Notes: generated by a model from the letters alone, not told the origin. DNA of 64,000 nucleotides from Gemmatimonadota bacterium (GCA_022823365.1 JAJDXG010000045.1:30486-94485); one strand, 5' to 3'; positions 12,971 through 63,769 are shown, counted from the stretch's first letter. Made by a program: numbers and translations.

Positions 12971-12977
12971 GGCGTCC

Positions 12978-50283: not shown

Positions 50284-50550
50284 TCAGAATTCCGTCAGCA
50301 CGGCGATCACCAGAATCACCGCCAGCGGCAGCGGGCTCGCGGCCAGGATCCACAGCCGTTTGGGCTCGAACTTCAGGTGCATGTAGTAGAGCGCCACCAG
50401 CAGGGCCTTCCAGAGCGCCATGAGGATCAGACCCGTGGCGAGCAGCCACTGCGGGAGGGCGAGAAACGCGTACCCCACCTCGGCCATCGTCAGAACGAAA
50501 AGTATGAACCAGATCAGGAAGTATCTGGGTTCTTGCCCGTTGCCTGCCAT
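50284..50550 (-). CDS. cytochrome c oxidase subunit IV (prokaryotic small subunit)
   Basis: 88 aa with three TM helices. LVALYYMHLK is typical of bacterial CoxIV/CtaF-like proteins. Directly follows subunit III. Confidence 0.75.
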   Translation of the reverse strand: MAGNGQEPRYFLIWFILFVLTMAEVGYAFLALPQWLLATGLILMALWKALLVALYYMHLKFEPKRLWILAASPLPLAVILVIAVLTEF

Positions 50551-51306: not shown

Positions 51307-53067
51307 CTAGTCCGCTACCGGCTGGGGTTCGAGCGCGGGCGCGGCGGTCTCGCGGGGCGGGGGCGCGTCCTGCAGCCAGTAGTCCTCTTCCACATCCGGC
51401 GCGGAGTACTCGTAGGGCCCGCGGTAGACGATGGGCACCAGCTCGAAGTTGCCGTGCGGCGGCGGCGACGGCACCGTCCACTCCAGGGAGTTGGCGTGCC
51501 ACGGGTTGTTGCCGGCCTTTTTCCCCTTCCAGATGCTGATGATGAAGTTGAGGGCGTAGATCGCCTGAACCGCCACCAGCGCGAACACGCACACCGTGAT
51601 GAACTGGTTGATGGGCTGCAGGGGCTGCAGGAACTCGTACTGAGTGGGGTCGTAGATGCGCCGCATGTGTCCCTGGATCCCGATCGAGTGCATGGGCCAG
51701 AACACCAGGTTGTAGAGGATCAGCGTCAGCCAGAAGTGGATCCTGCCCCATTTCTCGTTCATGAGGCGGCCGAACATCTTCGGATACCAGAACGTGATGC
51801 CCGCGAAGATCGCGAACAGGCTGCCGCCGAAGAGCACGTAGTGGATGTGCGCCACGATGAAGTAGGTGTCGTGGATGTAGACGTCGACCGGGGTCGAGGC
51901 CATGAACACGCCGGAGAGCCCGCCGATGATGAACATCGACACGAAGCCCAGGGCGTGCAGCATGGGGGTGTGCAGGTGGATGTTCCCCTTGTAGATGGTC
52001 CCCAGCCAGTTGAACACCTTGATGGCGGACGGCACCGCGATGACCATGGTCGTGATCATGAAGGTGGTGCCGAGCATCGGGTTCATGCCGCTCTGGAACA
52101 TGTGGTGACCCCACACGATCCATGACAGGAAGGCGATGGAGACGATCGCCAGCACCATGGCGTGGTAGCCGAAGACGGGCTTGCGCGCGCCGTTGGCCAG
52201 CACGTCCGAGGTGATGCCCATTGCGGGCAGGATGAGGATGTAGACCTCCGGGTGCCCGAAGAACCAGAACAGGTGCTGCCAGAGGAGCGGCTCGCCGTCG
52301 CTGGCCGGCAGGAAGAACCCGGTCCCGATGGTCTGGTCGAAGAGCAGCATGATCAGCGCGCCCGCCAGGATCGGGATCGCCAGCAGGATCAGGATCGCGG
52401 TGATGAAGAGTGCCCAGGTGGCCAGCGGCATCCGGAACCAGGTCATCCCGGGCGCGCGCATGTTGATGATGGTCGTGATGTAGTTGACCGCCCCCGCGAG
52501 CGATGCGAAGCCCAGGATGGTGAGGCTGATCAGCCAGAGCTGCTGCCCCAGGTAGACGCCGGTGTACTCACCGCTCGCGCTGAGCGGGGCGTACGACGTC
52601 CATCCGGCTCCGGCGGCGCCTCCCTCGACCGCGAAGCTCGCCAGCATCAGCAGTCCGGCGGGGAAGGCCATCCAGAACGACGCCATGTTGAGGCGCGGGA
52701 AGGCCATGTCGTCGGCGCCGATCTGGAGCGGGATCAGCAGGTTGCCGAAGACCCCCACCAGCAGCGGCATGATCGCGAAGAAGATCATGATGGTGCCGTG
52801 CATGGTGACCAGCGAGTTGTAGAACTCGGGCAGCATGATGGCGCCGGCGGGCGTGGGGGCCATCATCTCGTCCGGCAGGAGCATGCCACCGGGCATGGGC
52901 TCGCTCGGAAACCCCAGCTGCCACCGGATCATCGCTGCCAGCAATCCTCCCACGACCAGGAAGAACAGGCTCATCAGCAGGAACTGGATGGCGATGATCT
53001 TGTGGTCGGTCGAGAAGACGTAACGCCGAATCCACGGCATCTCGTGGGCGTGCCCGTGCGCGTCCAT
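51307..53067 (-). CDS. ctaD: cytochrome c oxidase subunit I (heme-copper oxidase, A-type)
   Basis: STDHKIIAIQF, WFFGHPEVYILILPAMG, VWGHHMF and FIVAHIHYVLFGG are canonical subunit I motifs. Confidence 0.95.
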   Translation of the reverse strand: MDAHGHAHEMPWIRRYVFSTDHKIIAIQFLLMSLFFLVVGGLLAAMIRWQLGFPSEPMPGGMLLPDEMMAPTPAGAIMLPEFYNSLVTMHGTIMIFFAIMPLLVGVFGNLLIPLQIGADDMAFPRLNMASFWMAFPAGLLMLASFAVEGGAAGAGWTSYAPLSASGEYTGVYLGQQLWLISLTILGFASLAGAVNYITTIINMRAPGMTWFRMPLATWALFITAILILLAIPILAGALIMLLFDQTIGTGFFLPASDGEPLLWQHLFWFFGHPEVYILILPAMGITSDVLANGARKPVFGYHAMVLAIVSIAFLSWIVWGHHMFQSGMNPMLGTTFMITTMVIAVPSAIKVFNWLGTIYKGNIHLHTPMLHALGFVSMFIIGGLSGVFMASTPVDVYIHDTYFIVAHIHYVLFGGSLFAIFAGITFWYPKMFGRLMNEKWGRIHFWLTLILYNLVFWPMHSIGIQGHMRRIYDPTQYEFLQPLQPINQFITVCVFALVAVQAIYALNFIISIWKGKKAGNNPWHANSLEWTVPSPPPHGNFELVPIVYRGPYEYSAPDVEEDYWLQDAPPPRETAAPALEPQPVAD

Positions 53068-53769
53068 CTACTGGTCCTCCTGATCGTCGGCGTCGTCAGC
53101 GTCGTCGGCGTCCGCGCTCTGGGAGGCGACCCACGCGTCGAATTCGGTCGCCTCGTATACGTTGAGGGTCCCCCCCATGGTCGTATGCAGATTACCGCAG
53201 AGTTCGGCGCAACCGATGGGATACGCGCCCGCGGCGGTCGCCTCGAACCAGACGGTGATGTCCATCCCCGGAACCGCGTCCTGCTTCACCCGCATCTCGG
53301 GCAGGAAGAACGAGTGCAGCACGTCCTCCGACCGGAGGGTGATGTTGACCGCCTGGTTCACCGGGACATGCATGATGTTGATGGTCGAGATGTCGTCGGC
53401 GGTGCCGGTGACCCCGTCCGCGCCCGCGTAGGTGATCTCCCACTCGAACTGCTTCGCGTTGACGATGTAGTCGAGGGCGTCGGCGGGCACGCTGTCCGGG
53501 TTCTTCATCATGTTCCACGAAGGGATGCTGATGAAAGCCAGGCCCAGCACGGCGATGAAGGGGACGGTGGTCCAGATGATCTCCGCCTTCGTCGACCCGT
53601 GGATGTAGGTGGCCTTCTGCCCGTCGCGCCGCCGGTAGCGGATGACGAAATAGACCAGGAGCGCCTCGGTGATCACGAAAACGATTCCCGTGACCACGAG
53701 GATCGCGTAGTACAGGAAGTCGACGTCCGGCCCAAAGGTCGAGTAACTGTCGGGGAGCATCCAGCTCAT
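53068..53769 (-). CDS. ctaC: cytochrome c oxidase subunit II (CuA, no fused cytochrome c)
   Basis: Two N-terminal TM helices, SEDVLHSFFLPE, and the CuA site CAELCGNLHTTM. Acidic tail ADADDADDADDQEDQ. AGGAGAA precedes the ATG at 53769. Confidence 0.9.
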   Translation of the reverse strand: MSWMLPDSYSTFGPDVDFLYYAILVVTGIVFVITEALLVYFVIRYRRRDGQKATYIHGSTKAEIIWTTVPFIAVLGLAFISIPSWNMMKNPDSVPADALDYIVNAKQFEWEITYAGADGVTGTADDISTINIMHVPVNQAVNITLRSEDVLHSFFLPEMRVKQDAVPGMDITVWFEATAAGAYPIGCAELCGNLHTTMGGTLNVYEATEFDAWVASQSADADDADDADDQEDQ

Positions 53770-53883: not shown

Positions 53884-54762
53884 CTAATGGGTCGCGGGAG
53901 CGAGAGCGTGGGCTCCGGGACCGTGCGGATCGATCGGCTCGCCCATCGGCACCACTGCGTTGGCCGCCATGGCTTCCGAGAAGGAGAAGCTCACCATCGC
54001 GGTCTCGCCGGTGGTGACGGTGACGCTTGCGGTCTGCGTGCCGTAGCGCTCGTGCCAGGCCTCGACCACGTAATCGCCGGGCGGGAGCATGCCCAGGTCG
54101 GCGCCTCCCGCCATGTCCGTGACCCCGTGGAAGGGGTGGTCCAGCACGCCCACGTAGGCGCTCATCCAGCCGTGCACGTCGCAGCGCACCGGGACCATCA
54201 CCTCCGCCAGCGGGAAGCTGCGGTTGGTGTCCATGTTCACCGGCTGGCTGATGTTGAAGCCGCGGTTTTCGCTGGGCGATGCGTTGATGTTGTGGGGCAG
54301 GCCGTCCGAGTTGCGGAAGGTGAGGTCCTGTCCCGCCTGCACGCCCACGACCCGGGGCACGTAGCGGCAGCCGACCTGGTCCATCACCACCGCGCCGCCC
54401 GGGGTGGGGAAGCTCATGCCCGCGTCGAGGCCTTCCCTGACGTAGACGAAGACGTTGGCCAGGCCGCCGCCGTCACCCACCACGACCTCCTCGGTCATCG
54501 GGGCATCGGTGTACCGGGCCGCGCAATTCGGCTCGGACGCCATGTCGATCGCATCCATTTCGGGCGCCATGCCCTCGAACATCACCATTGCGTTGATGCC
54601 GCCCGCGGTGGCCATGTCGACGGGAGAGGCCATCTCCTCGCCAGCGGCCTCTTCCTCCATGCCGCCGCCGGCCTCACCGCCACCGCCGCCGCCGCAGGCG
54701 ATCGCAAACACCGCAGCCGCCGCCATCACCATGGCCCGGCCGCATCCGAACAGGTCTCTCAT
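53884..54762 (-). CDS. cupredoxin (type-1 copper-like) lipoprotein with C-terminal CarboxypepD_reg-like domain
   Basis: Lipobox AIACGG after ATG 54762, which is preceded by GGAGGAAGG. Candidate T1Cu ligands are SDGLPHN and CDVHGWM (C-x2-H-x2-M). The C-terminal GDYVVEAWHERYG..VTV looks like an Ig-like domain. Confidence 0.65.
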   Translation of the reverse strand: MRDLFGCGRAMVMAAAAVFAIACGGGGGGEAGGGMEEEAAGEEMASPVDMATAGGINAMVMFEGMAPEMDAIDMASEPNCAARYTDAPMTEEVVVGDGGGLANVFVYVREGLDAGMSFPTPGGAVVMDQVGCRYVPRVVGVQAGQDLTFRNSDGLPHNINASPSENRGFNISQPVNMDTNRSFPLAEVMVPVRCDVHGWMSAYVGVLDHPFHGVTDMAGGADLGMLPPGDYVVEAWHERYGTQTASVTVTTGETAMVSFSFSEAMAANAVVPMGEPIDPHGPGAHALAPATH

Positions 54763-54797
54763 TCCTTCCTCCGTGGTGCTATTTGAAACATCGATGT

Positions 54798-56384
54798 CTA
54801 CGCGTCGCCCTCATCCGCGCCCTCGGCGCCTTCCCGCTCACGCCTCTGGGCCCGGGCTACCACCAGCACGCCCAGCCCGGCGGTGAGCAGCGTCGCGATG
54901 AGCGGCGCGACCACCACGGTGGCTGGCGTCGGTTCCTGCAGAAAAATGTAATGCCATGAGCTGATCGAGCCCCGGGTTCCTGTTTCTCCGTTGTCGCCGT
55001 CCCACGCCGCGAAACCGACGGGCACCGGCTCGCCGATGCGGAACTGCAGATCGCCCGGATCCTCGTTCTCAAGAACGCGGCGGAACATAACAGCCCAGCG
55101 CCCCGCCGAAAACGCCGCCTCCGACACGAGCGACTGGCTGGCGTCGCCCTGGGGGGCCATGGTGCCCAGCCCGCGGGCGTCCGCCTCCTGCGCGCCGTCC
55201 GCCGTGCTCTCCCAGTGCCACAGGTACACGGGCTCCAGCGGATCTCCCAGGAGGAAATAGGGCTTGTCCATCCCCTCCGGGATTTCCATCGGGAACTGGA
55301 GGTACAGGCCGTCGGGTCTGGGACCCGGCTCCATGTCGCCCTCGTCGGGTCCCACCGCCGCCAGGACCTGGGCCTGGAAGCCGGCCCAGGCGGTATCGGG
55401 GCTCTCGGAATGGTCGCTCCAGGACACGTGCACGGCGAGTTCGCCGCCATCGTGCAGGGCGCGCACCCACAGCCCAGCCACCTGCGGGACAAACCAGCGC
55501 GGGCTCTCGATGATCTGCCCGCCCATGGGGATATAAAACGCCTCCGCCGACTCCCAAAGCGGGTCGTCGACGCCCTCCGGAAGGGGCGCGTCCTCGACCA
55601 GGCCGGCCCGGATCACCTCGGTGATGCCCGGCGGGTCCTCGGGAGCGAAGCTGCGCACGTAGTGCGCGAGGTTCCACAACTGTTCGTCGGTGATGACCCC
55701 GGCGTCGATCAGGTCGGTGAACGACGGCATCGGCGTGCCGTCCAGACCGGTGCGCAGCCGCTGGTAGATGTCCTCGACCGTGCCGCCGCCGTTGAAATAC
55801 CAGTTCTCGGTCAGGTCCGCCGAGTAGGTGGGCATTCCCGAGTCGTCAACGAGCGTCGGAGAGGAGGTGCCGTCGCCCCTCCCGTCGATGCCGTGGCAGC
55901 GATTGCACTCGATGAGCTCGTATACCTCCCGCCCGTCGGCGAGCGCTTCTTCGGTGGCGCGCGTCGGGCTGCTGAAGGTCAGCGGCTCGGGGGCCTCGCC
56001 GGCGGCGAAGAACCGGGAGAAGCTCTTGAGGTAGTCGACGAGCGCCAGCCTCTCCTCGAGGCTGAGCTCTTCCTCCCATCCGGGCATGGTCGTGCCCGGC
56101 ATGCCTTCGTTGATGACGCGCATGATGTCGTCGTCGGTGGGAAGCTGCCCGCTCGCGGTGGTACGGATCTGATAGAGCGCCTGGGTGAAGTCGCGCGGGC
56201 GCGGCAGCATCCAGGTCGCCGCGTAGCCGTCGCCGAGGCCTTCGTAGCCGTGGCACGACGCGCACCAGCGGTCGTAGACGTCGCGCCCCAGCGCGTTCTC
56301 TTCCTGGGCGGCGAGAGGGGCCGACGCGGCGCACGTCACAGCCGCCGCAAGTACGAAACCGGGGATCATCGCTCGCGCCCGCAT
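54798..56384 (-). CDS. diheme cytochrome c fused to an EB_dh (ethylbenzene-dehydrogenase gamma / DOMON-like) heme-binding domain, C-terminal TM anchor
   Basis: Two CxxCH sites (CASCH, CNRCH). The EB_dh-like pattern follows: WVRALHDGGELAVHVSWSD, YLQFP, VYLWHW, AAFSAGRWAVMFRR and VGFAAWDGDNGE. The ATG overlaps the upstream stop (TGATG at 56382..56386). Confidence 0.75.
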   Translation of the reverse strand: MRARAMIPGFVLAAAVTCAASAPLAAQEENALGRDVYDRWCASCHGYEGLGDGYAATWMLPRPRDFTQALYQIRTTASGQLPTDDDIMRVINEGMPGTTMPGWEEELSLEERLALVDYLKSFSRFFAAGEAPEPLTFSSPTRATEEALADGREVYELIECNRCHGIDGRGDGTSSPTLVDDSGMPTYSADLTENWYFNGGGTVEDIYQRLRTGLDGTPMPSFTDLIDAGVITDEQLWNLAHYVRSFAPEDPPGITEVIRAGLVEDAPLPEGVDDPLWESAEAFYIPMGGQIIESPRWFVPQVAGLWVRALHDGGELAVHVSWSDHSESPDTAWAGFQAQVLAAVGPDEGDMEPGPRPDGLYLQFPMEIPEGMDKPYFLLGDPLEPVYLWHWESTADGAQEADARGLGTMAPQGDASQSLVSEAAFSAGRWAVMFRRVLENEDPGDLQFRIGEPVPVGFAAWDGDNGETGTRGSISSWHYIFLQEPTPATVVVAPLIATLLTAGLGVLVVARAQRREREGAEGADEGDA

Positions 56385-57187
56385 CAGTGCTCCTCCCCTT
56401 CGGCGCCCTCTTCCTCCCAGGTGCGCGGCTCCCAGCCGGTCTGTTCGTAGAGGTAGATGGTCACCTGCCAGATCTCTTCGGCGGTAAGCAGGTCCTCCCA
56501 GGCGGGCATCGCCGAGTCCCAGGGCGTGGCCTCGCGCGGAAGTCCGGGGCCGCCCTTGGCGATGCGCCAGAAGACGAAGCTCTCCGTGAGCTGTACGATG
56601 GTGCCCGGGTCCTGGAAGCTGAGGGGCGCGGGGTTGAAGGCGCTGGCAAAGTGCCCTTGCCCGTCCAGTGCGTCGCCGTGGCAGGGCATGCAGTTCTGGA
56701 CGTAGATCCTCTTGCCTTCTTCGTAATGTTCCTCAAGGTCACCCTCGTGCCGGAGCGGGTTCTCGAGGCCGTTGAGGACCATGGTCTCGCCGCGGAAGTC
56801 GATCTGGCCCGGGGGCGCGGGGTGCACCGAACGCAGCGCGGCCGGCGCCGAGACCGTGGGCCGCACCCGGTCGAAGGTCATGAAGGCGACCAGCAGGGGA
56901 ATGGTGACCATGAGCGCTGTCCGCAGAACCTTCTGGCGCGGATCGACCATGACCCGGTGGATGGGGGCCTTGAACTGCTTCCAGCGCTCCTCGGAGTCGC
57001 TGACCCAGATCAGCACGCCCACAACCACGGTCCCCATGTACTGCAGGACCACGGTGGCGGGCACCGGCGCGCTGGCGACCCCGAAGAGGGGCGGCAGGAG
57101 CCAGATGCCCCATTCGAAGAGGACGTACGCCAGCACCACGACGATCGCCGCCTGGCCCAGCGGATGCTTCCAGGGCTTGGTGTTCAT
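56384..57187 (-). CDS. membrane-anchored monoheme cytochrome c
   Basis: About three N-terminal TM helices, then one CxxCH (CMPCH) in a class I-like domain (YVQNCMPCHG ... MPAW). GGGAGGAG precedes the ATG at 57187. Confidence 0.75.
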   Translation of the reverse strand: MNTKPWKHPLGQAAIVVVLAYVLFEWGIWLLPPLFGVASAPVPATVVLQYMGTVVVGVLIWVSDSEERWKQFKAPIHRVMVDPRQKVLRTALMVTIPLLVAFMTFDRVRPTVSAPAALRSVHPAPPGQIDFRGETMVLNGLENPLRHEGDLEEHYEEGKRIYVQNCMPCHGDALDGQGHFASAFNPAPLSFQDPGTIVQLTESFVFWRIAKGGPGLPREATPWDSAMPAWEDLLTAEEIWQVTIYLYEQTGWEPRTWEEEGAEGEEH

Positions 57188-57214
57188 CGATTCTCCTCCC
57201 TCAAGGCGCGCCTC

Positions 57215-58015
57215 CTATCTCTGCGATGCGATGAACTGCACGATCGCCTCGAGTTCGGCCGCCGGGATGTTCCCGAAGATCGGGGGCATTATCCCGAGCA
57301 TCGCCTCGAACCCCTCGGCCGCCGACGCGGTCGGATCGAGGATGGACGTCCGGATTTCGTCGGCGGTCAGGCGACTGCCCATGCCCTCGTAGGACGGTCC
57401 CAGCGGCGATTGCCCGGTGACCGCGTGGCAGGTGGCGCAGGTGTGCCGGGTCAGAAGCTCTTCCGGGTCGAGGGGCCCGGTCGGACCCAGCACCGGGGCG
57501 GCGGGCGCGCTCGCCACCACCCCGCCCGCGGCTGCCGCTCCACCGTCGTCTGCGAAATCCGCCCCCGAAACCGTGACCTCCCCTCCCAGGGACTGCAGGT
57601 AGGCCACCAGCGCCCAGATCTGCACGGAGGAGAGGGTGCGGCTCGCGTCCAGCATGATGGGCGCGAACCCCTCCACCAGGTAGGCGTTGGGGTCCACCAT
57701 CGACGTATGCAGGTACTGCTTGCAGTCCTCGCCCGCGACGCGGTTCGCGCAGCGCTCGCCGATGAGCCCGGTCCCCGCGTGGTCGGTGAGCAGGTTCGGC
57801 GCGCGCTCGCCCAGGCCGTGGCAGGCCGTGCAACCGCCGCCGCCGTTGTACAGCTCCTCGCCCGCCGCGATGAGCTCCTCGGGGGTGACGTCGTCCGACA
57901 ACACCAGATCCTCGGGCACGTCCGACTGGATCTGCGGGATGGCGTTGGCGACCCAGGTGAACACGCCCAGGCAGCCGATCACAACGGCCAGGATACTCAG
58001 GTTGGTCTTTAGCAT
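57215..58015 (-). CDS. membrane-anchored diheme cytochrome c
   Basis: One N-terminal TM helix and two class I domains with CTACH and CATCH, each followed by a distal Met region (PIM, IMPP). GGGGAGG precedes the ATG at 58015. Confidence 0.8.
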   Translation of the reverse strand: MLKTNLSILAVVIGCLGVFTWVANAIPQIQSDVPEDLVLSDDVTPEELIAAGEELYNGGGGCTACHGLGERAPNLLTDHAGTGLIGERCANRVAGEDCKQYLHTSMVDPNAYLVEGFAPIMLDASRTLSSVQIWALVAYLQSLGGEVTVSGADFADDGGAAAAGGVVASAPAAPVLGPTGPLDPEELLTRHTCATCHAVTGQSPLGPSYEGMGSRLTADEIRTSILDPTASAAEGFEAMLGIMPPIFGNIPAAELEAIVQFIASQR

Positions 58016-58024
58016 CTGCCTCCC

Positions 58025-59815
58025 CTATCCCTCGCTGGGTGCCGGCTGAAGTTCGCTCTGGATCCCGCCCGCGGCCGACGCCCGGCCCGCCGACGAAATC
58101 ACGGGTTTCTCGGCCAGCGAGCCCAGCCAGAAGATGAAGGCCACCAGCCCGAAGAAGATGAGCACGCAGGCCGAGATGACCACCGACGAATAGCCCAGCG
58201 CCGGGGTGGCGGCCCAGGGGCTGGTGTCGCGAATGACCTCGAAGACGTGCCAGTGCTGGCGGATGCCGCTGCGCGCGAAGCCCATGAGGCCCATCAGCCA
58301 GGTGAAGGTCACCGCCAGGATGAAAAGCGCGTACTGCGAGCGCTGCGGCATGCGGCCCCACTGGATCTCGCCTCTCGAGGTGGCGCCGCGGAGCATCAGC
58401 AGGTCGATGGTGATCACCCCGATGATGCACGCGAGCACCGTGAGTACCTGGTAGACCGAAAAGCCGATGCGCACGAGCGTCGGCACCATGTAGCCGTAGA
58501 TCCCGTAGAACAGCACGATCGCCGAGGCCACCACGAAGATCGCGCCCTGCACGATCGTGCCGGTGCGCGCCCACGGCACCACCGGTTCCTTGTTGGCGCG
58601 CCGGTAGAGCAGGAACGACAGGAAGGTGGTCAGGATCATGAAGTTGACCGCCGTGTTCTTGCCGCTCATCAGCCCGAGGACGCTGAGGAAGGGGTGGTGC
58701 GTGCCGCCCATCGCCGCAAACTCCTCGCGGCTGGCGATCATGGTGTTGGGCGTCGCCCACACGATCACGCCCACGATGAGCACGGCGAGCATGTACTTCG
58801 TATAGGGCATGAAGCGCTCCGCCCCGGGTATTCGGCCCATCCCCACCCACAGGTAATAGTTGCCGGCGAGGAACAGTATCCCGATCAGGAAGGCCTGGAT
58901 GATCCACAGCCAGCTCATGAAGCCGCCCATCATGGTGATGCCCATCTGCTGGTTGAACTCGTAGATCTCGCGGCCCAGCCAGTAGCCCGCGAAGGGCAGA
59001 ACGATGAGCGCGCCGATGGCGATCATGTTGCCCACGTAGCCCATCCAGTCGTAGTGCGCCCGCTCCTCGTCGCTCTTTGCGGCCAGGAAGCGGTACGCCG
59101 CGTAGGCGCCGACCACCGCCCCGCCGAACACGACGTTGGCGATCAGCCGGTGGATGTTGATCGGCATCCAGGTCGCGTTGGTGAGCGCCGACCACAACTG
59201 CACCATCTGCGGAGCCGTGTCGACGGTGACGTCGGCCGGCGGGCTCATCATGTAGGTCAGCCAGCCGTTGGCGATGAACATGACGATCGTGCCCCACACG
59301 TTCAGGGCGATGCCCAGCCCCCAGTGGAACCACTTGGCGCGACCCTTCTTCCAGCGGTCCCAGCCGTAGTAGTACAGGTAGAGCGTGAAGGACTCGAAGA
59401 AGAAGAGCCCCACGTAGATCCACATCGACAGGTTGAAGATCTGCGCGAGATAGCTGAACAGGGTGGGGTAGATGGTGACCAGCAGGAAGAGCAGGATGCC
59501 GCCCCAGATGGCGGTCGCGGAGTACGCTACCAGCAGGAGCCGGGTGAACTCCTTGGACAGCTTGTCGTAGCGCTCGTCCCCACCGAACATGCCGATCGCC
59601 TCGGTGACCACCGCGAACATAGGTACGCCCAGCACGAAGGCGGCGAAGAGCAGGTGCACCTGGGCGGCGACCCACACCGCCGCCCGCCCGCCGATGACCG
59701 GGAAGTCGCCGTAGTCGCGCCCGGCGGGCACCTGGGCGAACGCGGGCTCCGCCATCACCAGGAGGACGAGCGCGCCCAGCAGAAGGATGGGTCCGGCGCC
59801 GGAGCGCCACGTCAT
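58025..59815 (-). CDS. cytochrome bd-like CydA homologue (CydA-only; no CydB nearby)
   Basis: ORF 58025..59950, with the start moved to ATG 59815 (MTWRSGAGPILLLGALVLLV). It aligns by eye to E. coli CydA: QVHLLFAAFVLGVP (His19 region), GLFFFESFTLYLYYYGWDRW (Glu107/GWDR region), FIANGWLTYMMSPP and NIHRLIANVVFGG (His186 region). A long additional polytopic C-terminal half follows. Confidence 0.8.
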   Translation of the reverse strand: MTWRSGAGPILLLGALVLLVMAEPAFAQVPAGRDYGDFPVIGGRAAVWVAAQVHLLFAAFVLGVPMFAVVTEAIGMFGGDERYDKLSKEFTRLLLVAYSATAIWGGILLFLLVTIYPTLFSYLAQIFNLSMWIYVGLFFFESFTLYLYYYGWDRWKKGRAKWFHWGLGIALNVWGTIVMFIANGWLTYMMSPPADVTVDTAPQMVQLWSALTNATWMPINIHRLIANVVFGGAVVGAYAAYRFLAAKSDEERAHYDWMGYVGNMIAIGALIVLPFAGYWLGREIYEFNQQMGITMMGGFMSWLWIIQAFLIGILFLAGNYYLWVGMGRIPGAERFMPYTKYMLAVLIVGVIVWATPNTMIASREEFAAMGGTHHPFLSVLGLMSGKNTAVNFMILTTFLSFLLYRRANKEPVVPWARTGTIVQGAIFVVASAIVLFYGIYGYMVPTLVRIGFSVYQVLTVLACIIGVITIDLLMLRGATSRGEIQWGRMPQRSQYALFILAVTFTWLMGLMGFARSGIRQHWHVFEVIRDTSPWAATPALGYSSVVISACVLIFFGLVAFIFWLGSLAEKPVISSAGRASAAGGIQSELQPAPSEG

Positions 59816-59849
59816 ACCAGGTTTCGGCACGTTTCTCTCCGAGGTGATT

Positions 59850-61298
59850 TCAACTCCGGGGAGCATCGTTCTCCTCCGGAATATCGTCGCGCGACGCGGC
59901 CGCGGACATCTGTTTGCGTAGGAAGAAAGGCAGTCGCCTGGAGAAATCAACCGGCATGCCGCGGCGCACCTCCGCCATCACGTCGGCGGTCACATTCGTG
60001 TACCCGCGCTTGCGCGCGTACGACTCGACGCGCTCGGACACCACGCCGCGCACGAAACTGGGCACCACGGACAGGCGCGCGCGCGCCTCTTCGGTCCAGG
60101 GGAGCCCGGGGGCGGTGTCGTCGCCGTACACAACCGCTCGCCGCGGCTCGATGACCGCCCGGTCGCCGACCGGATCGTAGGCGCAGGAGTCGTCGGGACC
60201 GAGCAGGTCGCCGGTCAGCGCGTGGGCGCGCGCGCGGCAGCCCCCGCACACCGAACGGTACTCGCAGCGCCCGCACCGACCGCCCAGCTCCCCGCCGCGC
60301 AGCCGGGCGAAGACGGGGGACGACTCCCACACCTGGCGGAAGGGGGTGGTGGTGAGGTCGCCGGCGACCACCGGCGTGTAGGGACAGGGGGTCACCTTCC
60401 CTTCGGGGGTGATGCGGCAGTAGTGCACGCCGCACGGGCAGCGGGTGCCGTAGTTGAGCAGCGGCGATTCCTCCCCACCCTCGATCACGTGGCGCATGAT
60501 CTGCGGCTGGCACTTGGAACGCACCATCATGCGGCCCCGGTACTTGCGCTCGAGCTCCACCAGCTCGGCCAGCACCTCCTCGTTCTCTTCCGGAGAGAGG
60601 CCCTGCATGCGTTCCCCGCGCCCCGTCGGAACCAGGAAGTACAGGTTGAACGAGACCGCGCCCCGGCTCTCCGCCCAGGCGGCGATCCCGGCGACTTCCG
60701 CCCGGTTGCCCCGGGTTACGCTGGTCTGGACGATGAAGTCCAGACGGTGGGCGGCGAGCCGGTCCACCGCGGCCAGGGTGTCGGAGAGCGCCCCCGACCC
60801 GTGGCGGAAGCGGTCGTGGTAGGTGTCGACCAGCGAGTCCACGCTGACCGCGACCCCCTTCACCCCCGCCTCCATGAGCGACTCGATGCGGCGGTCGGTG
60901 AGGCGGGTGCCGTTGGTGCCCACCACCACGGTGGCCCCGCCGGCGCTCGCCCGGGCGGCGATCTCTTCCAGGTCGTCGCGCAGGAGGGGCTCCCCACCCG
61001 AGAGAATGAGCACCGGGTTCGGGTTGACCTCCAGAACCTGGTCGAGCACGCGATGACATTCCGCGGTGGACAGCTCCGTTTCGGCCAGGTGCCAAGCTCC
61101 CGCGGAGATGTAGCAGTGCGCGCACTCCAGGTTGCAGCGCCGGGTGAGATTCCACGCGACGATGTGCGGGAGACCCGGAGCCGCCCCCGAATCCGCCGAT
61201 ACGCCTTCCGCGACCCAGCGCAGGGAGGGAGTGGTGGAGGATTCGGAGAAGCCGTTCCGCCCGACCGTGGGCAGAACGGGAGCGCGCGGACGGGCCAT
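59850..61298 (-). CDS. radical SAM/SPASM-type enzyme (AhbD/NirJ-like) with C-terminal PCP_red-like domain
   Basis: ORF 59850..61712, with the start moved to ATG 61298, overlapping the upstream stop (TGATG). Radical SAM cluster site RRCNLECAHCY, GGEPLL, and auxiliary Cys clusters CPCGVHYC..CPY and CGRCEYRSVCGGCRA. The C-terminal LPWTEEARARLSVVPSFVRGVVSERVESYARKRGYTNVT resembles standalone PCP-reductase-family domains. Confidence 0.85.
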   Translation of the reverse strand: MARPRAPVLPTVGRNGFSESSTTPSLRWVAEGVSADSGAAPGLPHIVAWNLTRRCNLECAHCYISAGAWHLAETELSTAECHRVLDQVLEVNPNPVLILSGGEPLLRDDLEEIAARASAGGATVVVGTNGTRLTDRRIESLMEAGVKGVAVSVDSLVDTYHDRFRHGSGALSDTLAAVDRLAAHRLDFIVQTSVTRGNRAEVAGIAAWAESRGAVSFNLYFLVPTGRGERMQGLSPEENEEVLAELVELERKYRGRMMVRSKCQPQIMRHVIEGGEESPLLNYGTRCPCGVHYCRITPEGKVTPCPYTPVVAGDLTTTPFRQVWESSPVFARLRGGELGGRCGRCEYRSVCGGCRARAHALTGDLLGPDDSCAYDPVGDRAVIEPRRAVVYGDDTAPGLPWTEEARARLSVVPSFVRGVVSERVESYARKRGYTNVTADVMAEVRRGMPVDFSRRLPFFLRKQMSAAASRDDIPEENDAPRS

Positions 61299-63418
61299 CA
61301 AGCCTCGTCCCGCCGCATGAACTGCTCGACGGCCGCCTTGGCGTCGGCGGGACTCACGGTCTTGAAGTCGACGGGGCAGTCGTCGGCCTGCTCGACCACG
61401 TCCCGGATCGGGCAGCGGGTCACGCCGGACGCTTTGGCTTCCTCGATGAACTTGCGCATCTCCGGGGTCAGCCCGTCGACACCCTCGGCGGCGGCCTTCA
61501 GCTGCTTGGTCTGCAGCTCCCGGAACATGACCAGCATGGTGTCGGTGTCGAAGGTGTCCGCCTCCATCATGGCCTGCTTGTTCTCGTCCATGACCCGCGT
61601 GGTGATGCGCCAGAAGTCGTGGTCGCGGGCGAAGCGCTCCACGGTGTTGCGGGCCAGGGGGCGGGCGATGAGGGGCACCGCGCCCAGCCGGTCGAAGGCC
61701 TCCTCGGTCCATACCACCGGGTCGGCGGCCGTGCGCGTTCGCTCATGCACGTGCCCGGTGTAGGGGCACGTCACCTCGATGGTCGGGTTGGCGGGCGCCG
61801 CATCGGCGTCGCTGCCCTCCACCACCGTGCGCTTCATGGCTTCCGCCGCCTTCACCTCGGCCAGGGCGAGCTCCTCGGCCGTGCCGATCCCCATGATGAG
61901 CTGCATGTGGGTGGGCAGCAGCTTTGCGATCGCCTCGTCCAGCCACTTGCTGGTCACCATCGGCAGGGTGGCGCCGGTGTCGCGGCCCGGCTCCAGCACC
62001 GGCGGCTCGGCTCCGTTGGATCCGTTGGCCCGCGCGCCCCGGGCACCGTTCGCCCCGGCCCCGTTGGCACCGGCGGATCCGTTGGCCGCGGGCCGGGACG
62101 CATCTTCACCCGGGCGCCAGTTCTCCAGCACGTACTCCTCCACCGCCTTGCGGGCGATGCCGAGCGCGAAGGGCGGGACGCGCAGGATGCGGACCTCCGC
62201 CTCCGGCGCCCACTCGAGCCCCATCTCGCCGTCTTCCTCGATCCAGGGAATCTCCTCGGGACGAACGTCGGTGGTGCCGATGAGGAGGATGTTCGCGTTC
62301 GACTGCCTGAGCAGGTTGTGCGCCTGGGACCCCAGATCCGTGCCCTCGATGCGGTGCGCCCCGTGGCGCGCGAGGATCAGCAGGCTGGGATCGACCTCCT
62401 CGGCCCACTGCAGGATGACCTGGAAGGGCTTGCCGATGAGCACCTGGGTCTCGACTTCGACCTCCGGGTACTCCTCGGCCATGATGCGCGCCCGCTTCAC
62501 GTTCGCCTGGGCGAGCTTGAGCAGGCCCTTGTCGATGATGTTGTTGTGAAGCTCCTCCTGCTCCTCGAACTTGAAGATCTTCGAGGCCTGCACCGAGAGG
62601 ACGTCCTTGATGTTGCCGAAGACCGCGTGATGGTATTCGACATCGAACGACGAGCCCACGTAGAGCTTCGCCCCGTACTCCGACGCCATCTCCAGGGCGA
62701 GGCGCATGGCCTTGTAGCTGTATGCGGAGCCGTCCACGCACACCATGAAGCTGCCCCCGGCGAGCGGGCGCTCGTTGCGCACCACGAAGGCGTCCTTCTC
62801 CACCTTCTGCAGCACGCGCGCCACCACCCCGCCGAGCTGCGAGTAGGGCTGATAGCCGATCCCGTGCGCCCCGATCACCATCAGGTCGTAGGCGCGGCCG
62901 CTCGATCCCGCCAGCTTCTCGTCGTGCTCCTCGTCCTCTGCGACGATCCGACCGTCATCGCCGAGGCGCACGTCGCTGCGCACCTTGTCGCCCCCGTCGT
63001 AGCTCGAGGCGATGTTGGGGTCGAAGCCGATGAGGCTCGGCAGGTGACCCTCCCCTGAATTCACCTCGCTCACCAGCTCCTCGTAGTTGATGCCCTCGAG
63101 AAGCTGGCGCGTGAGCGGCACGCCGGCGTCCCGGCACCGCCGGTCCACCTGGTCCAGGAAGGAGTCCGAGATGAGCTGCAGCCCCTTCTCGATCAGCTTG
63201 TCGTGGATCTTGCGCTGGCGCTTGATCTCCTTCTCGGTCTGGAACTGGGCGGGAAGGCCGGTCTCCAGCTGGCGGAAGCGGATGTCGTGCAGGCGTGCGG
63301 CGTAGACGTGGTTTCCGGTGATCCGGCCCTCGGAACGGTTCGCGAGTTCGATGGCGCGATCCACCGCCCAGTCCGACCAGGGCGAGTTGTCCACCGGCAC
63401 GAAGATCTCACGGTACAT
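61298..63418 (-). CDS. tandem universal stress protein (USP) domains fused to two PCP_red-like domains and a Cys-containing C-terminal region
   Basis: USP-like starts MYREIFVPVDNSPWSDWAVDRAIELA and FMVCVDGSAYSYKAMRLALEMA, with ends DLMVIGAHG and LLILARHGAH..GSQAHNLLR. PCP_red-like segments LEWAPEAEVRILRVPPFALGIARKAVEEYV and VVWTEEAFDRLGAVPLIARPLARNTVERFA. Confidence 0.8.
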   Translation of the reverse strand: MYREIFVPVDNSPWSDWAVDRAIELANRSEGRITGNHVYAARLHDIRFRQLETGLPAQFQTEKEIKRQRKIHDKLIEKGLQLISDSFLDQVDRRCRDAGVPLTRQLLEGINYEELVSEVNSGEGHLPSLIGFDPNIASSYDGGDKVRSDVRLGDDGRIVAEDEEHDEKLAGSSGRAYDLMVIGAHGIGYQPYSQLGGVVARVLQKVEKDAFVVRNERPLAGGSFMVCVDGSAYSYKAMRLALEMASEYGAKLYVGSSFDVEYHHAVFGNIKDVLSVQASKIFKFEEQEELHNNIIDKGLLKLAQANVKRARIMAEEYPEVEVETQVLIGKPFQVILQWAEEVDPSLLILARHGAHRIEGTDLGSQAHNLLRQSNANILLIGTTDVRPEEIPWIEEDGEMGLEWAPEAEVRILRVPPFALGIARKAVEEYVLENWRPGEDASRPAANGSAGANGAGANGARGARANGSNGAEPPVLEPGRDTGATLPMVTSKWLDEAIAKLLPTHMQLIMGIGTAEELALAEVKAAEAMKRTVVEGSDADAAPANPTIEVTCPYTGHVHERTRTAADPVVWTEEAFDRLGAVPLIARPLARNTVERFARDHDFWRITTRVMDENKQAMMEADTFDTDTMLVMFRELQTKQLKAAAEGVDGLTPEMRKFIEEAKASGVTRCPIRDVVEQADDCPVDFKTVSPADAKAAVEQFMRRDEA

Positions 63419-63607
63419 GGCTGTCTCGATTCAGGGTTATCGAGGGACGAGGCGCTTGTGGTTCAGCCATGCGACGCTGGAGCGGCGGGTGCAGGGAGGC
63501 CCATCCGAGGGGGCCCTGCGGGCTGGAAGCGGTCCACTTGGTTGGGCAAGTCAGGCAGGGCCAAGTCCCCGAAGGCGGTCGCCGAAATGGTCGGCGTACA
63601 TAACATA

Positions 63608-63627: not shown

Positions 63628-63769
63628 CATCTGATCTCGTGTGTCGGCCCCCGCGGAGCCGGGCAAATTATACCGGAAATCGCTTGTCGATGTCAAACAC
63701 TGCGGAGGGGTCCGGCGGTGGCGCGCGAAGGGGAGGAATCCACTCCGGTGAGTTCGCCCCTCTGCCGCG

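What the first reader, a model, noticed from the sequence alone, without database searches (positions are those of the whole stretch)
58025..59815. CydA-only cytochrome bd-like membrane protein inside a cytochrome c / aa3 oxidase operon: candidate uncharacterised quinol-oxidising module
The product shares the N-terminal signature helices of cytochrome bd subunit I:
- QVHLLFAAFVLGVP against E. coli MYHFLFVPLTLGMA (His19 position)
- GLFFFESFTLYLYYYGWDRW against AFFLESTFVGLFFFGWDRL (Glu107 position)
- FIANGWLTYMMSPP against LVANGWMQNP
- NIHRLIANVVFGG against KFVHTVASGYVTG (His186 position)

There is no cydB or cydX anywhere nearby. By my rough alignment the Glu99 position is not acidic. The C-terminal half is a long extra polytopic region rather than a canonical Q-loop plus four helices.

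The gene sits 9 nt upstream of three c-type cytochrome genes, which are followed by a cupredoxin gene and ctaCDE. No bc1 complex or alternative complex III is visible in the window. My inference is that it could be the quinol-dehydrogenase entry point of a novel quinol:cytochrome c (or cupredoxin) oxidoreductase feeding the aa3 oxidase, rather than an O2 reductase. From memory, comparative-genomic surveys of the bd superfamily have noted CydA-like families that co-occur with c-type cytochromes. I know of no biochemical characterisation.
Basis: partly seen in the sequence, partly recalled or inferred. Interest (0 to 1): 0.85.

Follow-up and report, generated by a model that had tools for sequence, protein, structure and literature searches.

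The report
bd-like cytochrome module beside aa3 oxidase
The gene is a real, strongly conserved "cytochrome bd-like" membrane haem protein of the already catalogued but never purified OR-N2 family, here built into one operon with three c-type cytochromes, a blue-copper protein and an aa3 oxidase; what it does is still an open question in bacterial respiration.

Summary
Gene 58025-59866(-) matches Pfam Cyt_bd_oxida_I (E 1e-22) in its N-terminal half only. It keeps the His19, Glu107, His126, His186 and Met393 equivalents, has Tyr at Glu99 and Ser at Glu445, has no Q-loop and has no CydB partner.

This is not a new family. It carries the full OR-N2 signature of Murali et al. 2021 (the "bd-like oxidase" of Nitrospira, Nitrospina and Kuenenia), in the family's usual four-gene module: CydA-like, dihaem c, monohaem c, and dihaem c with an EbdC-like domain.

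The context appears to be new. The order USP, radical SAM, CydA-like, three cytochromes c, cupredoxin, ctaCDEF is colinear in 50 of 51 informative Gemmatimonadota species. It recurs in Chloroflexota, Methylomirabilota and Rokubacteria.

Function is unresolved. The sequence lost the quinol site but kept the haem ligand and proton-path residues. The 49%-identical Nitrospira-type clade sits beside Rieske/cytochrome b. Both points favour a cytochrome c-fed O2-reducing module (about 0.4). It stays plausible (about 0.28) because of the obligate aa3 linkage.

The gene is a new member of a known, uncharacterised kind.

The parts
63667..63696 (-). Sigma-70-type promoter consensus (TTGACA, 18 nt, TATAAT; 12 of 12 matches) upstream of the first gene of the array.
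   Evidence: It is the only promoter-like site in 49900-64000. One site is also what shuffled sequence yields, so this is suggestive only.
61298..63418 (-). 706-aa protein with universal-stress-protein domains and a PCP_red domain. It is the first gene of the conserved array.
   Evidence: Weak NCBIfam matches to the BchB C-terminus and to UspE. Pfam Usp plus PCP_red on the 97%-identical L001 copy. Upstream and colinear in the Gemmatimonadota loci.
59850..61298 (-). Radical SAM/SPASM enzyme of the AhbD/NirJ (haem-modifying) clade with a C-terminal PCP_red domain. Its start overlaps the USP gene's stop by 1 nt.
   Evidence: Pfam Radical_SAM, SPASM and PCP_red. TIGR04545 AhbD 272 bits and TIGR04055 NirJ2 270 bits, both below the 500-bit cut-offs. 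Upstream of the CydA-like gene in 54 of 54 Gemmatimonadota loci and in NC10 loci that lack aa3.
58025..59866 (-). It has an N-terminal signal or anchor helix plus 13 transmembrane helices.
   Evidence: Signature residues: H54, Y134, E141, Y148, Y150, H164, H222, H374, M383, K386, S516, W522, H523.
57215..58015 (-). Membrane-anchored dihaem cytochrome c (266 aa; CTACH at 62, CATCH at 193). It is fused to the C-terminus of the CydA-like protein in some relatives.
   Evidence: Natural fusions are P0122, P0124 and P0137.
56384..57187 (-). Monohaem cytochrome c with about three N-terminal transmembrane helices (267 aa; CMPCH at 166).
   Evidence: It is fused with the next protein in NC10 locus L074 (727 aa, 3 CxxCH).
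54798..56384 (-). Dihaem cytochrome c with an EbdC/NxrC-like (EB_dh) domain and a C-terminal membrane anchor (528 aa). This is the 'alternative NxrC' type.
   Evidence: Pfam EB_dh E 2e-15. TIGR03477 E 3.5e-23, below its cut-off. PDB 6h5l_B at E 1e-55 for the dihaem part and 7b04_C NxrC at E 4e-10. The canonical Met and Lys haem-b ligands are absent in this copy.
53884..54762 (-). Lipoprotein with a cupredoxin-like (type 1 copper) domain followed by a CarboxypepD_reg-like domain (292 aa).
   Evidence: H157, C194, H197 and M200 are invariant in 55 of 55 orthologues. There are weak plastocyanin and amicyanin matches. Pfam Copper-bind scores 16.7 bits, below the 21.2 cut-off.
53068..53769 (-). Cytochrome c oxidase subunit II with an intact CuA site and no fused cytochrome c domain.
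   Evidence: Pfam COX2 and COX2_TM. H152, C187, C191, H195 and M198 are invariant in 59 of 59 orthologues.
51307..53067 (-). Haem-copper oxidase subunit I (A-family, aa3-type).
   Evidence: Pfam COX1 E 4e-152.
50594..51229 (-). Cytochrome c oxidase subunit III.
   Evidence: Pfam COX3.
50284..50550 (-). Prokaryotic cytochrome c oxidase subunit IV. It is the last gene of the array.
   Evidence: Pfam COX4_pro.

Best explanation
What is shown: the gene encodes the haem-b core of an OR-N2-type ('bd-like') cytochrome b/c membrane complex.
- The core is a CydA-derived protein with 13 transmembrane helices.
- It is always encoded with three membrane-anchored c-type cytochromes carrying five c-haems in total.
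- The core keeps the b558-type haem site (H222 and M383), the His19-type haem ligand (H54) and the Glu107 and His126 proton-path residues (E141, H164). It has replaced the quinol-binding Q-loop with extra helices.

What is inferred: its c-haem subunits take electrons from the periplasmic side, and the core reduces O2, or another oxidant, at the H54 haem using protons drawn from the cytoplasm.
- This would be a cytochrome c-fed oxidase organised like cbb3 (a catalytic core plus monohaem and dihaem c subunits), but built on a bd fold.
- In this Longimicrobiales genome the module is co-transcribed with a blue-copper protein and an aa3 oxidase, and probably co-assembles with them. The operon would then carry two O2-reducing ends sharing one set of membrane-bound carriers.
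- The catalytic step is inferred from homology and has not been shown for any OR-N protein.
For: - Family identity: Pfam, PDB sequence search, hhalign and Foldseek all place the protein in the CydA fold.
- Residue spacing is identical to the OR-N2 reference row of Murali Table S6. Y to E is 7 residues, E to H 23, H to M 161, M to N 4, N to S 129 and S to W 6.
- The four-gene module matches their description of OR-N2 operons.
- Kept residues: H54 in 83 of 86 relatives, E141 in 84, H164 in 86, H222 in 85 and M383 in 85.
- Lost features: the Q-loop, plus Glu99 to Tyr and Glu445 to Ser.
- The simplest evolutionary reading is a changed electron donor with retained chemistry.
- The c-haem subunits hit CcoP-type (Cytochrome_CBB3) families.
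- Natural CydA-like/dihaem-c fusions show a physical complex.
- The 49%-identical clade with the same signature lies beside Rieske and cytochrome b in 55 of 80 loci. That is where a terminal oxidase normally sits.
- Three cultivated aerobic Nitrospirales have no additional canonical bd or cbb3 oxygen reductase besides OR-N types.
- In an NC10 genome the module follows a PQQ dehydrogenase and small cytochromes c, with no aa3 present.
Against: - No OR-N protein has been purified or assayed.
- Two oxidases in one operon would be an odd redundancy. Yet the linkage is 51 of 51 in Gemmatimonadota and moves as a block into three other phyla. That looks like sequential steps in one pathway.
- There is no CydB or second CydA-like partner, although the literature expects an OR-N1/OR-N2 pair to form the oxidase.
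- The Glu445 ligand of the second active-site haem is Ser.
- The same module is conserved in the strict anaerobe Kuenenia, according to Luecker 2013.
- bc1 and ACIII are reported as rare in Gemmatimonadota.
Confidence: 0.4

Rival explanations
1. The OR-N2 module is a quinol:cytochrome c (or cupredoxin) oxidoreductase, a functional analogue of bc1 or ACIII. Menaquinol would be oxidised at or near the b558-type haem (H222/M383, with invariant K386 one turn away). Electrons would pass through the five c-haems and the cupredoxin to CuA of the co-encoded aa3 oxidase.
For: - The order CydA-like, three cytochromes c, cupredoxin, CoxII, CoxI is colinear in 50 of 51 Gemmatimonadota loci. It recurs as a block in Chloroflexota, Methylomirabilota and Rokubacteria.
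- The CydA-like protein is the most conserved gene of the array, with median identity 74.8% against 69.6% for CoxI.
- CoxII has CuA but no cytochrome c domain, so it needs an upstream one-electron donor.
- No other quinol-oxidising subunit is in the operon or the window.
- In 326 Gemmatimonadota genomes, petB is found in 23%, ACIII in under 10%, caa3-type oxidase in 74%, and cydA in 53% against cydB in only 29%.
- The b558 ligands are retained.
- The module is present in anaerobic anammox bacteria, and the ACIII-like idea was already raised.
Against: - The protein has lost what this role needs (the Q-loop and quinol-binding residues). It has kept what the role does not need: the His19 haem ligand and a proton path to the cytoplasmic side. 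Releasing quinol protons along that path would waste energy (Luecker 2013).
- Relatives with the same signature sit next to complete Rieske/cytochrome b genes, or next to cytochrome b plus MrpD-like genes. Quinol chemistry there has its own subunit.
- The published ACIII count rests on KEGG annotation, and the authors themselves suspect under-detection.
- No quinone site can be pointed to.
Confidence: 0.28
2. The module is neither a quinol oxidase nor an O2 reductase. It would be a membrane-anchored electron hub that collects electrons from periplasmic dehydrogenases through the EbdC/NxrC-like docking subunit. It would pass them to whichever oxidase is encoded next to it: OR-N1 plus bc in Nitrospira-type clusters, aa3 here.
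For: - The module always comes with a partner respiratory complex of varying type. Partners seen are aa3, Rieske/cytochrome b plus a second CydA-like gene, and MrpD-like plus cytochrome b.
- The alternative-NxrC subunit has been proposed as the anchor for periplasmic NXR.
- A PQQ dehydrogenase lies upstream in NC10.
- Cupredoxins accompany the module in NXR clusters too.
Against: - A 13-helix haem protein with a conserved buried Glu and His proton path, more conserved than CoxI, is excessive for a passive wire.
- The EB_dh domain here lacks the canonical Met and Lys haem ligands.
- Stand-alone four-gene modules exist without any partner.
- No periplasmic molybdoenzyme is in the window.
Confidence: 0.17
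3. It is a conventional cytochrome bd quinol oxidase subunit I whose CydB partner is encoded elsewhere.
For: Database sources name relatives 'cytochrome ubiquinol oxidase subunit I'. The protein passes the Pfam gathering score.
Against: - Only the N-terminal half matches.
- There is no Q-loop, and the Glu99 and Glu445 positions are Tyr and Ser.
- It has 13-14 rather than 9 helices.
- No cydB is next to any of about 80 orthologues.
- It hits no NCBIfam model.
Confidence: 0.02

Closest known systems
OR-N2 subfamily of the cytochrome bd superfamily (Murali, Gennis & Hemp 2021). Also known as the NIDE0901-like 'cytochrome bd-like oxidase' of Nitrospira and as TO_1 of Ca. Manganitrophus.
   Same: - About 14 transmembrane helices and no Q-loop.
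- The same signature residues at the same spacing: the H19, E107, H126, H186 and M393 equivalents are kept, with Tyr at E99 and Ser at E445.
- Operon with several cytochromes c and an EbdC homologue.
- OR-N was already recorded in Gemmatimonadota, Methylomirabilota and Chloroflexota.
   Different: - Here the module is fused into one array with a cupredoxin and ctaCDEF, and is preceded by USP and radical SAM genes.
- There is no OR-N1 partner, no Rieske/cytochrome b and no NXR.
- I found no description of this aa3-coupled arrangement in the searchable literature.
NXR-associated bd-like module of Nitrospina gracilis, Nitrospira and Kuenenia (Luecker 2010 and 2013; Mundinger 2019).
   Same: The gene set is the same: alternative NxrC, monohaem and dihaem cytochromes c, cupredoxin-like proteins, and a 14-helix bd-like protein whose Q-loop is replaced by helices.
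   Different: The host is a presumably heterotrophic Longimicrobiales bacterium with no nxr genes in the window. The neighbour is a haem-copper oxidase instead of NXR.
Canonical cytochrome bd quinol oxidase, CydAB(X) (E. coli 6RKO and 6RX4, Geobacillus 5DOQ).
   Same: The fold matches (Foldseek probability 1.0). So do the first four helices, the b558 ligands and part of the proton path.
   Different: There is no CydB or CydX and no Q-loop. Glu99 and Glu445 are replaced and extra helices are present. TM-scores are only 0.40-0.57 on the target length.
cbb3-type cytochrome c oxidase (CcoNOP).
   Same: The organisation is similar: one polytopic catalytic subunit plus membrane-anchored monohaem and dihaem c subunits. 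The c subunits hit the CcoP-type Pfam family.
   Different: The catalytic subunit is unrelated, being a bd fold rather than a haem-copper oxidase. This is an analogy of layout only.
Alternative complex III with caa3 gene clusters and supercomplex (Flavobacterium johnsoniae 6BTM), and actinobacterial qcr-cta.
   Same: The context is similar: a multihaem membrane module encoded directly upstream of an A-family oxidase (quotes this habit of ACIII).
   Different: There is no ActB or ActC (FeS or NrfD-like) homologue. Foldseek to ActC 6btm_C gives only E 0.12 and TM 0.23-0.28.

Membership tests
OR-N2 subfamily, cytochrome bd superfamily | N-terminal four-helix CydA core with the His19-equivalent haem ligand | tested here: met
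   Pfam E 1.3e-22. H54 aligns with Geobacillus H21 and E. coli H19. H is present in 83 of 86 relatives.
OR-N2 subfamily, cytochrome bd superfamily | Q-loop and quinol-binding residues absent | tested here: met
   Sequence and profile alignments to CydA stop at about aa 250-296. The model shows continuous transmembrane helices from 249 to 353 where the Q-loop would be.
OR-N2 subfamily, cytochrome bd superfamily | About 14 transmembrane helices | tested here: met
   The AlphaFold2 model has an N-terminal signal or anchor helix plus 13 long helices. Table S6 lists 14.
OR-N2 subfamily, cytochrome bd superfamily | Signature of Table S6: Tyr at E99, Glu at E107, His at H126 and H186, Met/Asn at M393, Ser at E445, Trp at W441, Tyr-x-Tyr at F114/F116 | tested here: met
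   Y134, E141, H164, H222, M383/N387, S516, W522, Y148/Y150. The inter-residue spacing is identical to reference TKS59798.1.
OR-N2 subfamily, cytochrome bd superfamily | Operon with multiple cytochromes c and an EbdC homologue | tested here: met
   The arrangement is conserved in all related loci.
OR-N2 subfamily, cytochrome bd superfamily | Placement inside the OR-N2 clade in a tree with the authors' reference sequences or HMMs | not tested
Indirect support only: 49% identity and an identical signature to the Nitrospira-type cluster member.
Canonical cytochrome bd quinol oxidase (qOR) | CydB (subunit II) partner encoded alongside | tested here: not met
   None in the window. None next to about 80 orthologues.
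Canonical cytochrome bd quinol oxidase (qOR) | Periplasmic Q-loop with quinol-binding residues | tested here: not met
   The same was stated for the family by Luecker 2013.
Canonical cytochrome bd quinol oxidase (qOR) | Glu99 and Glu445 (proton path and second active-site haem ligand) | tested here: not met
   Tyr134 and Ser516, conserved in 85 of 86 and 84 of 86 relatives.
Canonical cytochrome bd quinol oxidase (qOR) | Quinol:O2 oxidoreductase activity with three haems (b558, b595, d) | not testable with these tools
   This needs purification, spectroscopy and activity assays.
Alternative complex III | ActB (FeS, molybdopterin-like) and ActC/ActF (NrfD-like quinol-binding) subunits | tested here: not met
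   No such Pfam families occur in the operon or the window. Foldseek to ActC is insignificant.
Cytochrome bc1/b6f | Rieske FeS protein and cytochrome b | tested here: not met
   Absent from the window. They are present beside the Nitrospira-type relatives.
A-family haem-copper (aa3-type) cytochrome c oxidase, downstream genes | COX1, COX2 with CuA ligands, COX3 and COX4 | tested here: met
   Pfam. The CuA ligands H152, C187, C191, H195 and M198 are invariant in 59 of 59 orthologues. Haem a versus other haem types was not tested.
Cupredoxin (type 1 copper), gene 53884-54762 | His, Cys, His, Met copper ligands in a cupredoxin fold | tested here: inconclusive
   The ligand set H157, C194, H197, M200 is invariant in 55 of 55 orthologues. 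However, Pfam Copper-bind is below its cut-off (16.7 against 21.2 bits), PDB hits are E 0.03 or weaker, and the fold was not modelled.

The most novel reading that the evidence does not exclude
The OR-N2 module would be a third, structurally unrelated type of quinol:cytochrome c oxidoreductase, built on a bd-oxidase scaffold. It would be hard-wired to an aa3 oxidase as a self-contained quinol-to-O2 operon. This would explain how the many Gemmatimonadota (and some Chloroflexota, Methylomirabilota and Rokubacteria) without recognisable bc1 or ACIII feed their cytochrome c oxidases. Run in reverse, it would also explain the module's presence in nitrite oxidisers and anammox bacteria.
Probability: 0.28. 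Interest if true: 0.9.

Novelty: new member of a known kind. Interest (0 to 1): 0.55.

Why it matters
"bd-like oxidases" were singled out in the Nitrospira genome in 2010 (Luecker et al. 2010, as cited). They are presumed to be the terminal oxidase of globally important nitrite oxidisers and manganese oxidisers. None has been purified.

This locus shows the same module, with the same signature residues, in a non-nitrifying aerobic phylum. There it is locked to an ordinary aa3 oxidase in at least 50 species. That has two consequences.

- It gives a sharp either/or test of the module's chemistry. It is either upstream of aa3 as a new complex III, or parallel to aa3 as a new cytochrome c oxidase.
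- It moves the question into a phylum that has cultured aerobic heterotrophs. That is a gentler setting than slow-growing chemolithoautotrophs, if a cultured carrier of the operon can be found.

It also flags that KEGG-style "cydA" calls count these proteins as bd oxidases. In Gemmatimonadota, cydA is called in 53% of genomes against 29% for cydB, so high-affinity quinol oxidase capacity is probably over-stated in surveys.

Tried and rejected
- **Locus search, first attempt.** A 17-sequence alignment spanning 28-54% identity was too diverse to seed the search. I repeated it with 10 closer sequences.
- **Distant relatives.** The contexts of P0271 (Nitrospira/Manganitrophaceae) and P0158 are orphan genes with no cytochromes nearby, so they were uninformative.
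- **Per-genome test of the 'missing complex III' idea.** I tried Data Set S4 of PMC9426454, but the genome lists are truncated in the stored file. Only totals could be used. Among the few visible coxA-positive genomes, 0 of 4 cydA-only genomes and 7 of the other 20 carry petB. That sample is too small to count.
- **Anammox orthologue.** I looked for a labelled one to see whether an anaerobe keeps H19 and E107. No cluster carried such a name.
- **C-terminal half.** Profile comparison with E. coli CydA gave nothing beyond aa 254. There is only a weak BLASTP match of aa 411-541 to CydB 131-272 at E 7e-4. The Met393 and Glu445 equivalents were therefore assigned from the spacing in Table S6.
- **Terminator scan.** Hits are at chance level (7 found against 5.1 expected) and all lie inside genes, so there is no evidence the array is split.
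- **NCBIfam.** It has no model that hits the CydA-like protein or the cupredoxin-like protein.
- **Rejected readings.** A canonical bd oxidase with a remote CydB is rejected on the features listed in the membership test. An aa3 assembly factor is rejected because the module occurs widely without aa3.
Full report
**1. What is at the coordinates**

Add 17 for the 613-aa version.

The minus-strand ORF ending at 58025 encodes a polytopic membrane protein.
- Pfam's cytochrome bd subunit I model hits it at E 1.3e-22 (80 bits, cut-off 26). Only residues 44-296 match, against profile positions 3-248 of 418.
- A sequence search of the PDB finds Geobacillus CydA (5doq_A, E 1.6e-10) and a mycobacterial CydA, again over the N-terminal part only.
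- Profile comparison with E. coli CydA, taken from MG1655, gives 95% probability.
- That comparison fixes these equivalences: H54 = His19, Y134 = Glu99 (with the one-residue deletion typical of non-qOR1 families), E141 = Glu107, H222 = His186.
- An AlphaFold2 model built on 30 sequences has pLDDT 81.6 and pTM 0.83. It shows an N-terminal signal or anchor helix plus 13 long helices.
- Its ten best PDB fold matches are all CydA chains at probability 1.0 and TM-score 0.40-0.57 on the target. CydB chains come next, and no OR-N-type structure appears among the matches.
- The better start codon is ATG 59866. It has GGAGGAG 4 nt upstream and overlaps the previous gene by 17 nt. It gives the 613 aa seen in database gene calls.

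**2. The neighbourhood**

All genes lie on the minus strand, with gaps of 0-115 nt or small overlaps. In order:
- a USP plus PCP_red protein (61298-63418);
- an AhbD/NirJ-like radical SAM/SPASM enzyme with a PCP_red tail (59850-61298);
- the CydA-like gene;
- a membrane-anchored dihaem cytochrome c (57215-58015);
- a three-helix monohaem cytochrome c (56384-57187);
- a dihaem cytochrome c fused to an EbdC/NxrC-like domain and a C-terminal anchor (54798-56384);
- a lipoprotein with a type 1 copper ligand set (53884-54762);
- COX2 with CuA and no haem c domain, then COX1, COX3 and COX4.

A perfect sigma-70 consensus lies upstream of the first gene. Terminator-like hits are at chance level and lie inside genes. 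One transcription unit of about 13.4 kb is therefore likely but not shown. Pfam scans of the 40 largest ORFs and tblastn with E. coli CydA, CydB and CydX find no second cydA, no cydB or cydX, no Rieske or cytochrome b and no ACIII in the 64 kb.

**3. It belongs to a described family**

Murali, Gennis and Hemp (bioRxiv 10.1101/2021.01.16.426971) split the bd superfamily into qOR, OR-C and OR-N.
- They describe OR-N2 as 14-helix CydA homologues without a quinol site. [quoted passage not shown]
- Their Table S6 gives the OR-N2 signature on a Nitrospira reference: H99, Y183, E190, Y197/Y199, H213, H269, M430/N434, S563, W569.
- The window protein has H54, Y134, E141, Y148/Y150, H164, H222, M383/N387, S516 and W522.
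- The spacing from the Tyr to the Trp is identical, across 388 residues without an indel.
- These residues are conserved in 82-86 of 86 relatives.
- M383 is therefore the Met393 equivalent, so both b558 ligands are kept. S516 is the Glu445 equivalent, so that ligand is lost.
- Further invariant residues on the periplasmic side are H374, K386, E365, R515, R519 and H523. They may be the histidines behind the 'copper site' proposed for NIDE0901. I could not test their geometry because model coordinates are not exposed.
- OR-N was already tabulated in Gemmatimonadota, Methylomirabilota and Chloroflexota.

Earlier, Luecker et al. 2013 (PMC3578206) described the same gene set in Nitrospina, Nitrospira and Kuenenia. 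It comprised an alternative NxrC, monohaem and dihaem cytochromes c, cupredoxin-like proteins and a 14-helix bd-like protein with helices in place of the Q-loop. [quoted passage not shown] Mundinger et al. 2019 repeat the possible link to the quinone pool. Papers from 2024-2025 still say experimental confirmation is lacking. A search of 2021-2026 literature found no characterisation.

**4. Who has it, and in what context**

- The window comes from a Longimicrobiales (Gemmatimonadota) genome. Identity is 99% to an ENA MAG and 97% to chromosome OZ241869.1.
- The family is large. More than 7,300 90%-identity cluster representatives score E below 1e-5. At 50% clustering, 238 representatives score E below 1e-30. 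At least 594 matching loci in GTDB species-representative genomes encode a relative.
- Of 51 Gemmatimonadota species loci with at least 7.5 kb of downstream sequence, all 51 have CoxI downstream on the same strand. In 50 the order CydA-like, cA, cB, cC, cupredoxin, CoxII, CoxI is fully colinear.
- All 54 loci with enough upstream sequence have the radical SAM gene.
- The CydA-like protein is the most conserved gene of the array, at median 74.8% identity against 69.6% for CoxI.
- The block from CydA-like to CoxIII also occurs in a Chloroflexota MAG, a Methylomirabilota MAG and a Rokubacteria MAG, at 58-60% and 61-63% identity respectively.
- The type 1 copper ligands are invariant in 55 of 55 orthologues and the CuA ligands in 59 of 59.

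Other architectures of the same four-gene core:
- **Stand-alone** (L087).
- **Fibrobacterota locus L086.** The core comes with an extra cytochrome c and no oxidase genes.
- **NC10 bacterium.** The core follows a PQQ dehydrogenase and two small cytochromes c, with USP, radical SAM and a ParA/NUBPL-type ATPase but no aa3.
- **Nitrospinae-type.** The core comes with two MrpD-like subunits and a cytochrome b (L085). This is the TO_2 layout of Manganitrophaceae.
- **Nitrospira-type.** A metagenome scan was biased to a clade 49% identical to the window protein. In 55 of 80 loci a bc1-type cytochrome b lies between two CydA-like genes, and none of the 80 has CoxI or CoxII. In L108 the order is cytochrome c, CydA-like, cytochrome c, Rieske, cytochrome b, one unknown gene, CydA-like, cytochromes c. 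This matches the published Nitrospira CIII_1/bd-like_1/bd-like_2 region.

All these OR-N2-type copies share the window's signature. The MrpD-linked type has Ser at E141. Natural fusions argue for a physical complex. The CydA-like protein is fused with the dihaem cytochrome in P0122, P0124 and P0137. The monohaem and EbdC-type cytochromes are fused in NC10.

**5. How it most likely works**

Shown:
- It is a bd-fold haem protein that keeps a b558-type His/Met site and a His19-type site.
- It keeps a buried Glu and His on the helices that form the cytoplasmic proton path in real bd oxidases.
- It lacks the quinol site.
- It is always encoded with five c-haems on membrane-anchored subunits.

Inferred: direction of electron flow and substrate.

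I rank a cytochrome c-fed O2-reducing (or other oxidant-reducing) module first, at about 0.40.
- It is the smallest change from the ancestral enzyme, with a new donor and the same chemistry.
- It explains why the donor site was lost and the proton path was kept.
- It gives one function that fits the stand-alone, PQQ-linked and Rieske/cytochrome b-linked contexts.
- It mirrors the CcoN/O/P layout of cbb3 oxidases.
- Some aerobic Nitrospirales have no additional oxidase besides OR-N types.

Its weak points are real:
- it implies two oxidases in one obligate operon;
- there is no second CydA-like subunit;
- the Glu445 ligand is lost;
- the module reportedly occurs in an obligate anaerobe.

- It is the natural reading of this particular operon, which would then be a self-contained quinol-to-O2 block that also moves between phyla as a unit.
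- It fits the reported scarcity of petB (23%) and ACIII (under 10%) against 74% caa3-type oxidases in Gemmatimonadota. The authors themselves suspect undetected complex III modules.
- It requires the protein to have re-invented a quinol site while conserving residues it would not need.
- Its relatives sit beside genuine complex III genes.

A non-catalytic electron hub (about 0.17) and a canonical bd oxidase (about 0.02) complete the list. The remainder is unknown chemistry.

**6. Side observations on the partners**

- The EbdC-like domain in this genome has Leu and Arg/Gly where EbdC and NxrC have the Met and Lys haem-b ligands. Met is present in 40 of 66 orthologues. A 'periplasmic cytochrome b' should therefore not be assumed here.
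- The dihaem domain of the same protein is strikingly similar (E 1e-55) to a Kuenenia dihaem cytochrome of known structure, 6h5l_B.
- The radical SAM enzyme scores about 270 bits on both the AhbD and NirJ2 models, well below their 500-bit cut-offs. It travels with the bd-like module even where aa3 is absent. It may mature the module's haem, but this is untested.

**7. Verdict**

The family assignment is firm on five of six defining features; the sixth, tree placement, was not tested.

The description is right. The proposed function is plausible but unproven, was already published as a speculation, and is not the reading best supported by the sequence.

On novelty, this is a new member of a known, uncharacterised kind. 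Its conserved aa3-coupled operon architecture is something I could not find described.

Interest is moderate to high at 0.55. The locus does not reveal a new family. It does offer an unusually clean genetic setting in which to settle what bd-like oxidases do.

Noticed in passing
window 59850-61298 (-) and 61298-63418 (-); L074 4748-7987; L001 4031-10017: An AhbD/NirJ-like radical SAM/SPASM enzyme carries an unusual C-terminal PCP_red domain. It scores about 270 bits on both TIGR04545 and TIGR04055, below their 500-bit cut-offs. Together with a USP plus PCP_red protein it precedes the CydA-like gene in 54 of 54 Gemmatimonadota loci. It also does so in NC10 loci that lack aa3, so it travels with the bd-like module. 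In L001 the genes further upstream are hemA, hemB, HmuY, a ferredoxin, a ParA/NUBPL-type ATPase and a small PCP_red protein. This may be a dedicated haem maturation system.
   Followed up: partly
window 54798-56384 (-), residues 379 and 471-472: The EbdC/NxrC-like domain lacks the canonical Met and Lys haem-b ligands in this genome, having Leu379 and Arg471/Gly472. Met is present in 40 of 66 orthologues and Lys in only 5 of 66. Haem-b binding by this 'alternative NxrC' is therefore doubtful here.
   Followed up: yes
window 54798-56384 (-), residues 30-247: The dihaem cytochrome c domain matches PDB 6h5l_B ('conserved hypothetical cytochrome protein') at E 1e-55. From memory, this is the dihaem partner Kustc0457 of an HAO-like protein from the anammox bacterium Kuenenia. 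That is unexpectedly close for a Gemmatimonadota protein.
   Followed up: no
P0122 (889 aa), P0124 (784 aa), P0137 (807 aa, L085 10001-12424); L074 12584-14767: Natural gene fusions exist. The CydA-like protein is fused to the downstream dihaem cytochrome c in three 50%-cluster representatives. The monohaem and EbdC-type cytochromes are fused into one 727-aa protein in an NC10 MAG.
   Followed up: partly
L089-L168 (metagenome loci), e.g. L108 3593-15183: A clade 49% identical to the window protein shows a different conserved architecture. Two CydA-like genes flank Rieske and cytochrome b genes, followed by the cytochrome c genes. Cytochrome b is present in 55 of 80 loci and CoxI/CoxII in none. 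The upstream copy lacks H374, K386 and W522.
   Followed up: partly
L155 (GC 46%), 1935-21609: Three tandem copies of the CydA-like/cytochrome c module lie on one metagenome contig. One copy is fused to a cytochrome c, and the contig also carries a tetrahaem protein and a cupredoxin-like gene. The organism is unknown.
   Followed up: no
window 59864-59877 (-): The start codon of the CydA-like gene is more likely ATG 59866 than 59815. It has GGAGGAG 4 nt upstream, and the coding sequence overlaps the radical SAM gene's 3' end by 17 nt, which suggests translational coupling. The USP stop and radical SAM start also overlap by 1 nt, as do the genes for cytochromes B and C.
   Followed up: yes
window 63667-63696 (-): A perfect 12-of-12 sigma-70 consensus (TTGACA, 18 nt, TATAAT) lies about 250 nt upstream of the USP gene. 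It is the only promoter-like site in 14 kb.
   Followed up: no
window 49097-50053 (-): A 318-aa polytopic membrane protein directly downstream of CoxIV has no Pfam or NCBIfam hit. It is conserved at 36-57% identity downstream of the array in part of the related loci.
   Followed up: no
window 38698-40560 (+); L074 614-2401: A PQQ-dependent dehydrogenase with an N-terminal cytochrome c domain lies 18 kb from the operon. In the NC10 locus a PQQ dehydrogenase with two small cytochromes c lies directly upstream of the bd-like module.
   Followed up: no
window 16987-20238 (-), 29813-31501 (+), 32896-34782 (-), 47130-49091 (+): The window holds four Amidohydro_3-family paralogues, one of them 1083 aa. 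It also holds two amidases and an asparaginase, which points to nitrogen-rich substrate use.
   Followed up: no
PMC9426454 Data Set S4 (literature): KEGG-based surveys score cydA in 173 of 326 Gemmatimonadota genomes but cydB in only 95. The excess probably consists of OR-N2 genes like this one being counted as cytochrome bd oxidase.
   Followed up: partly
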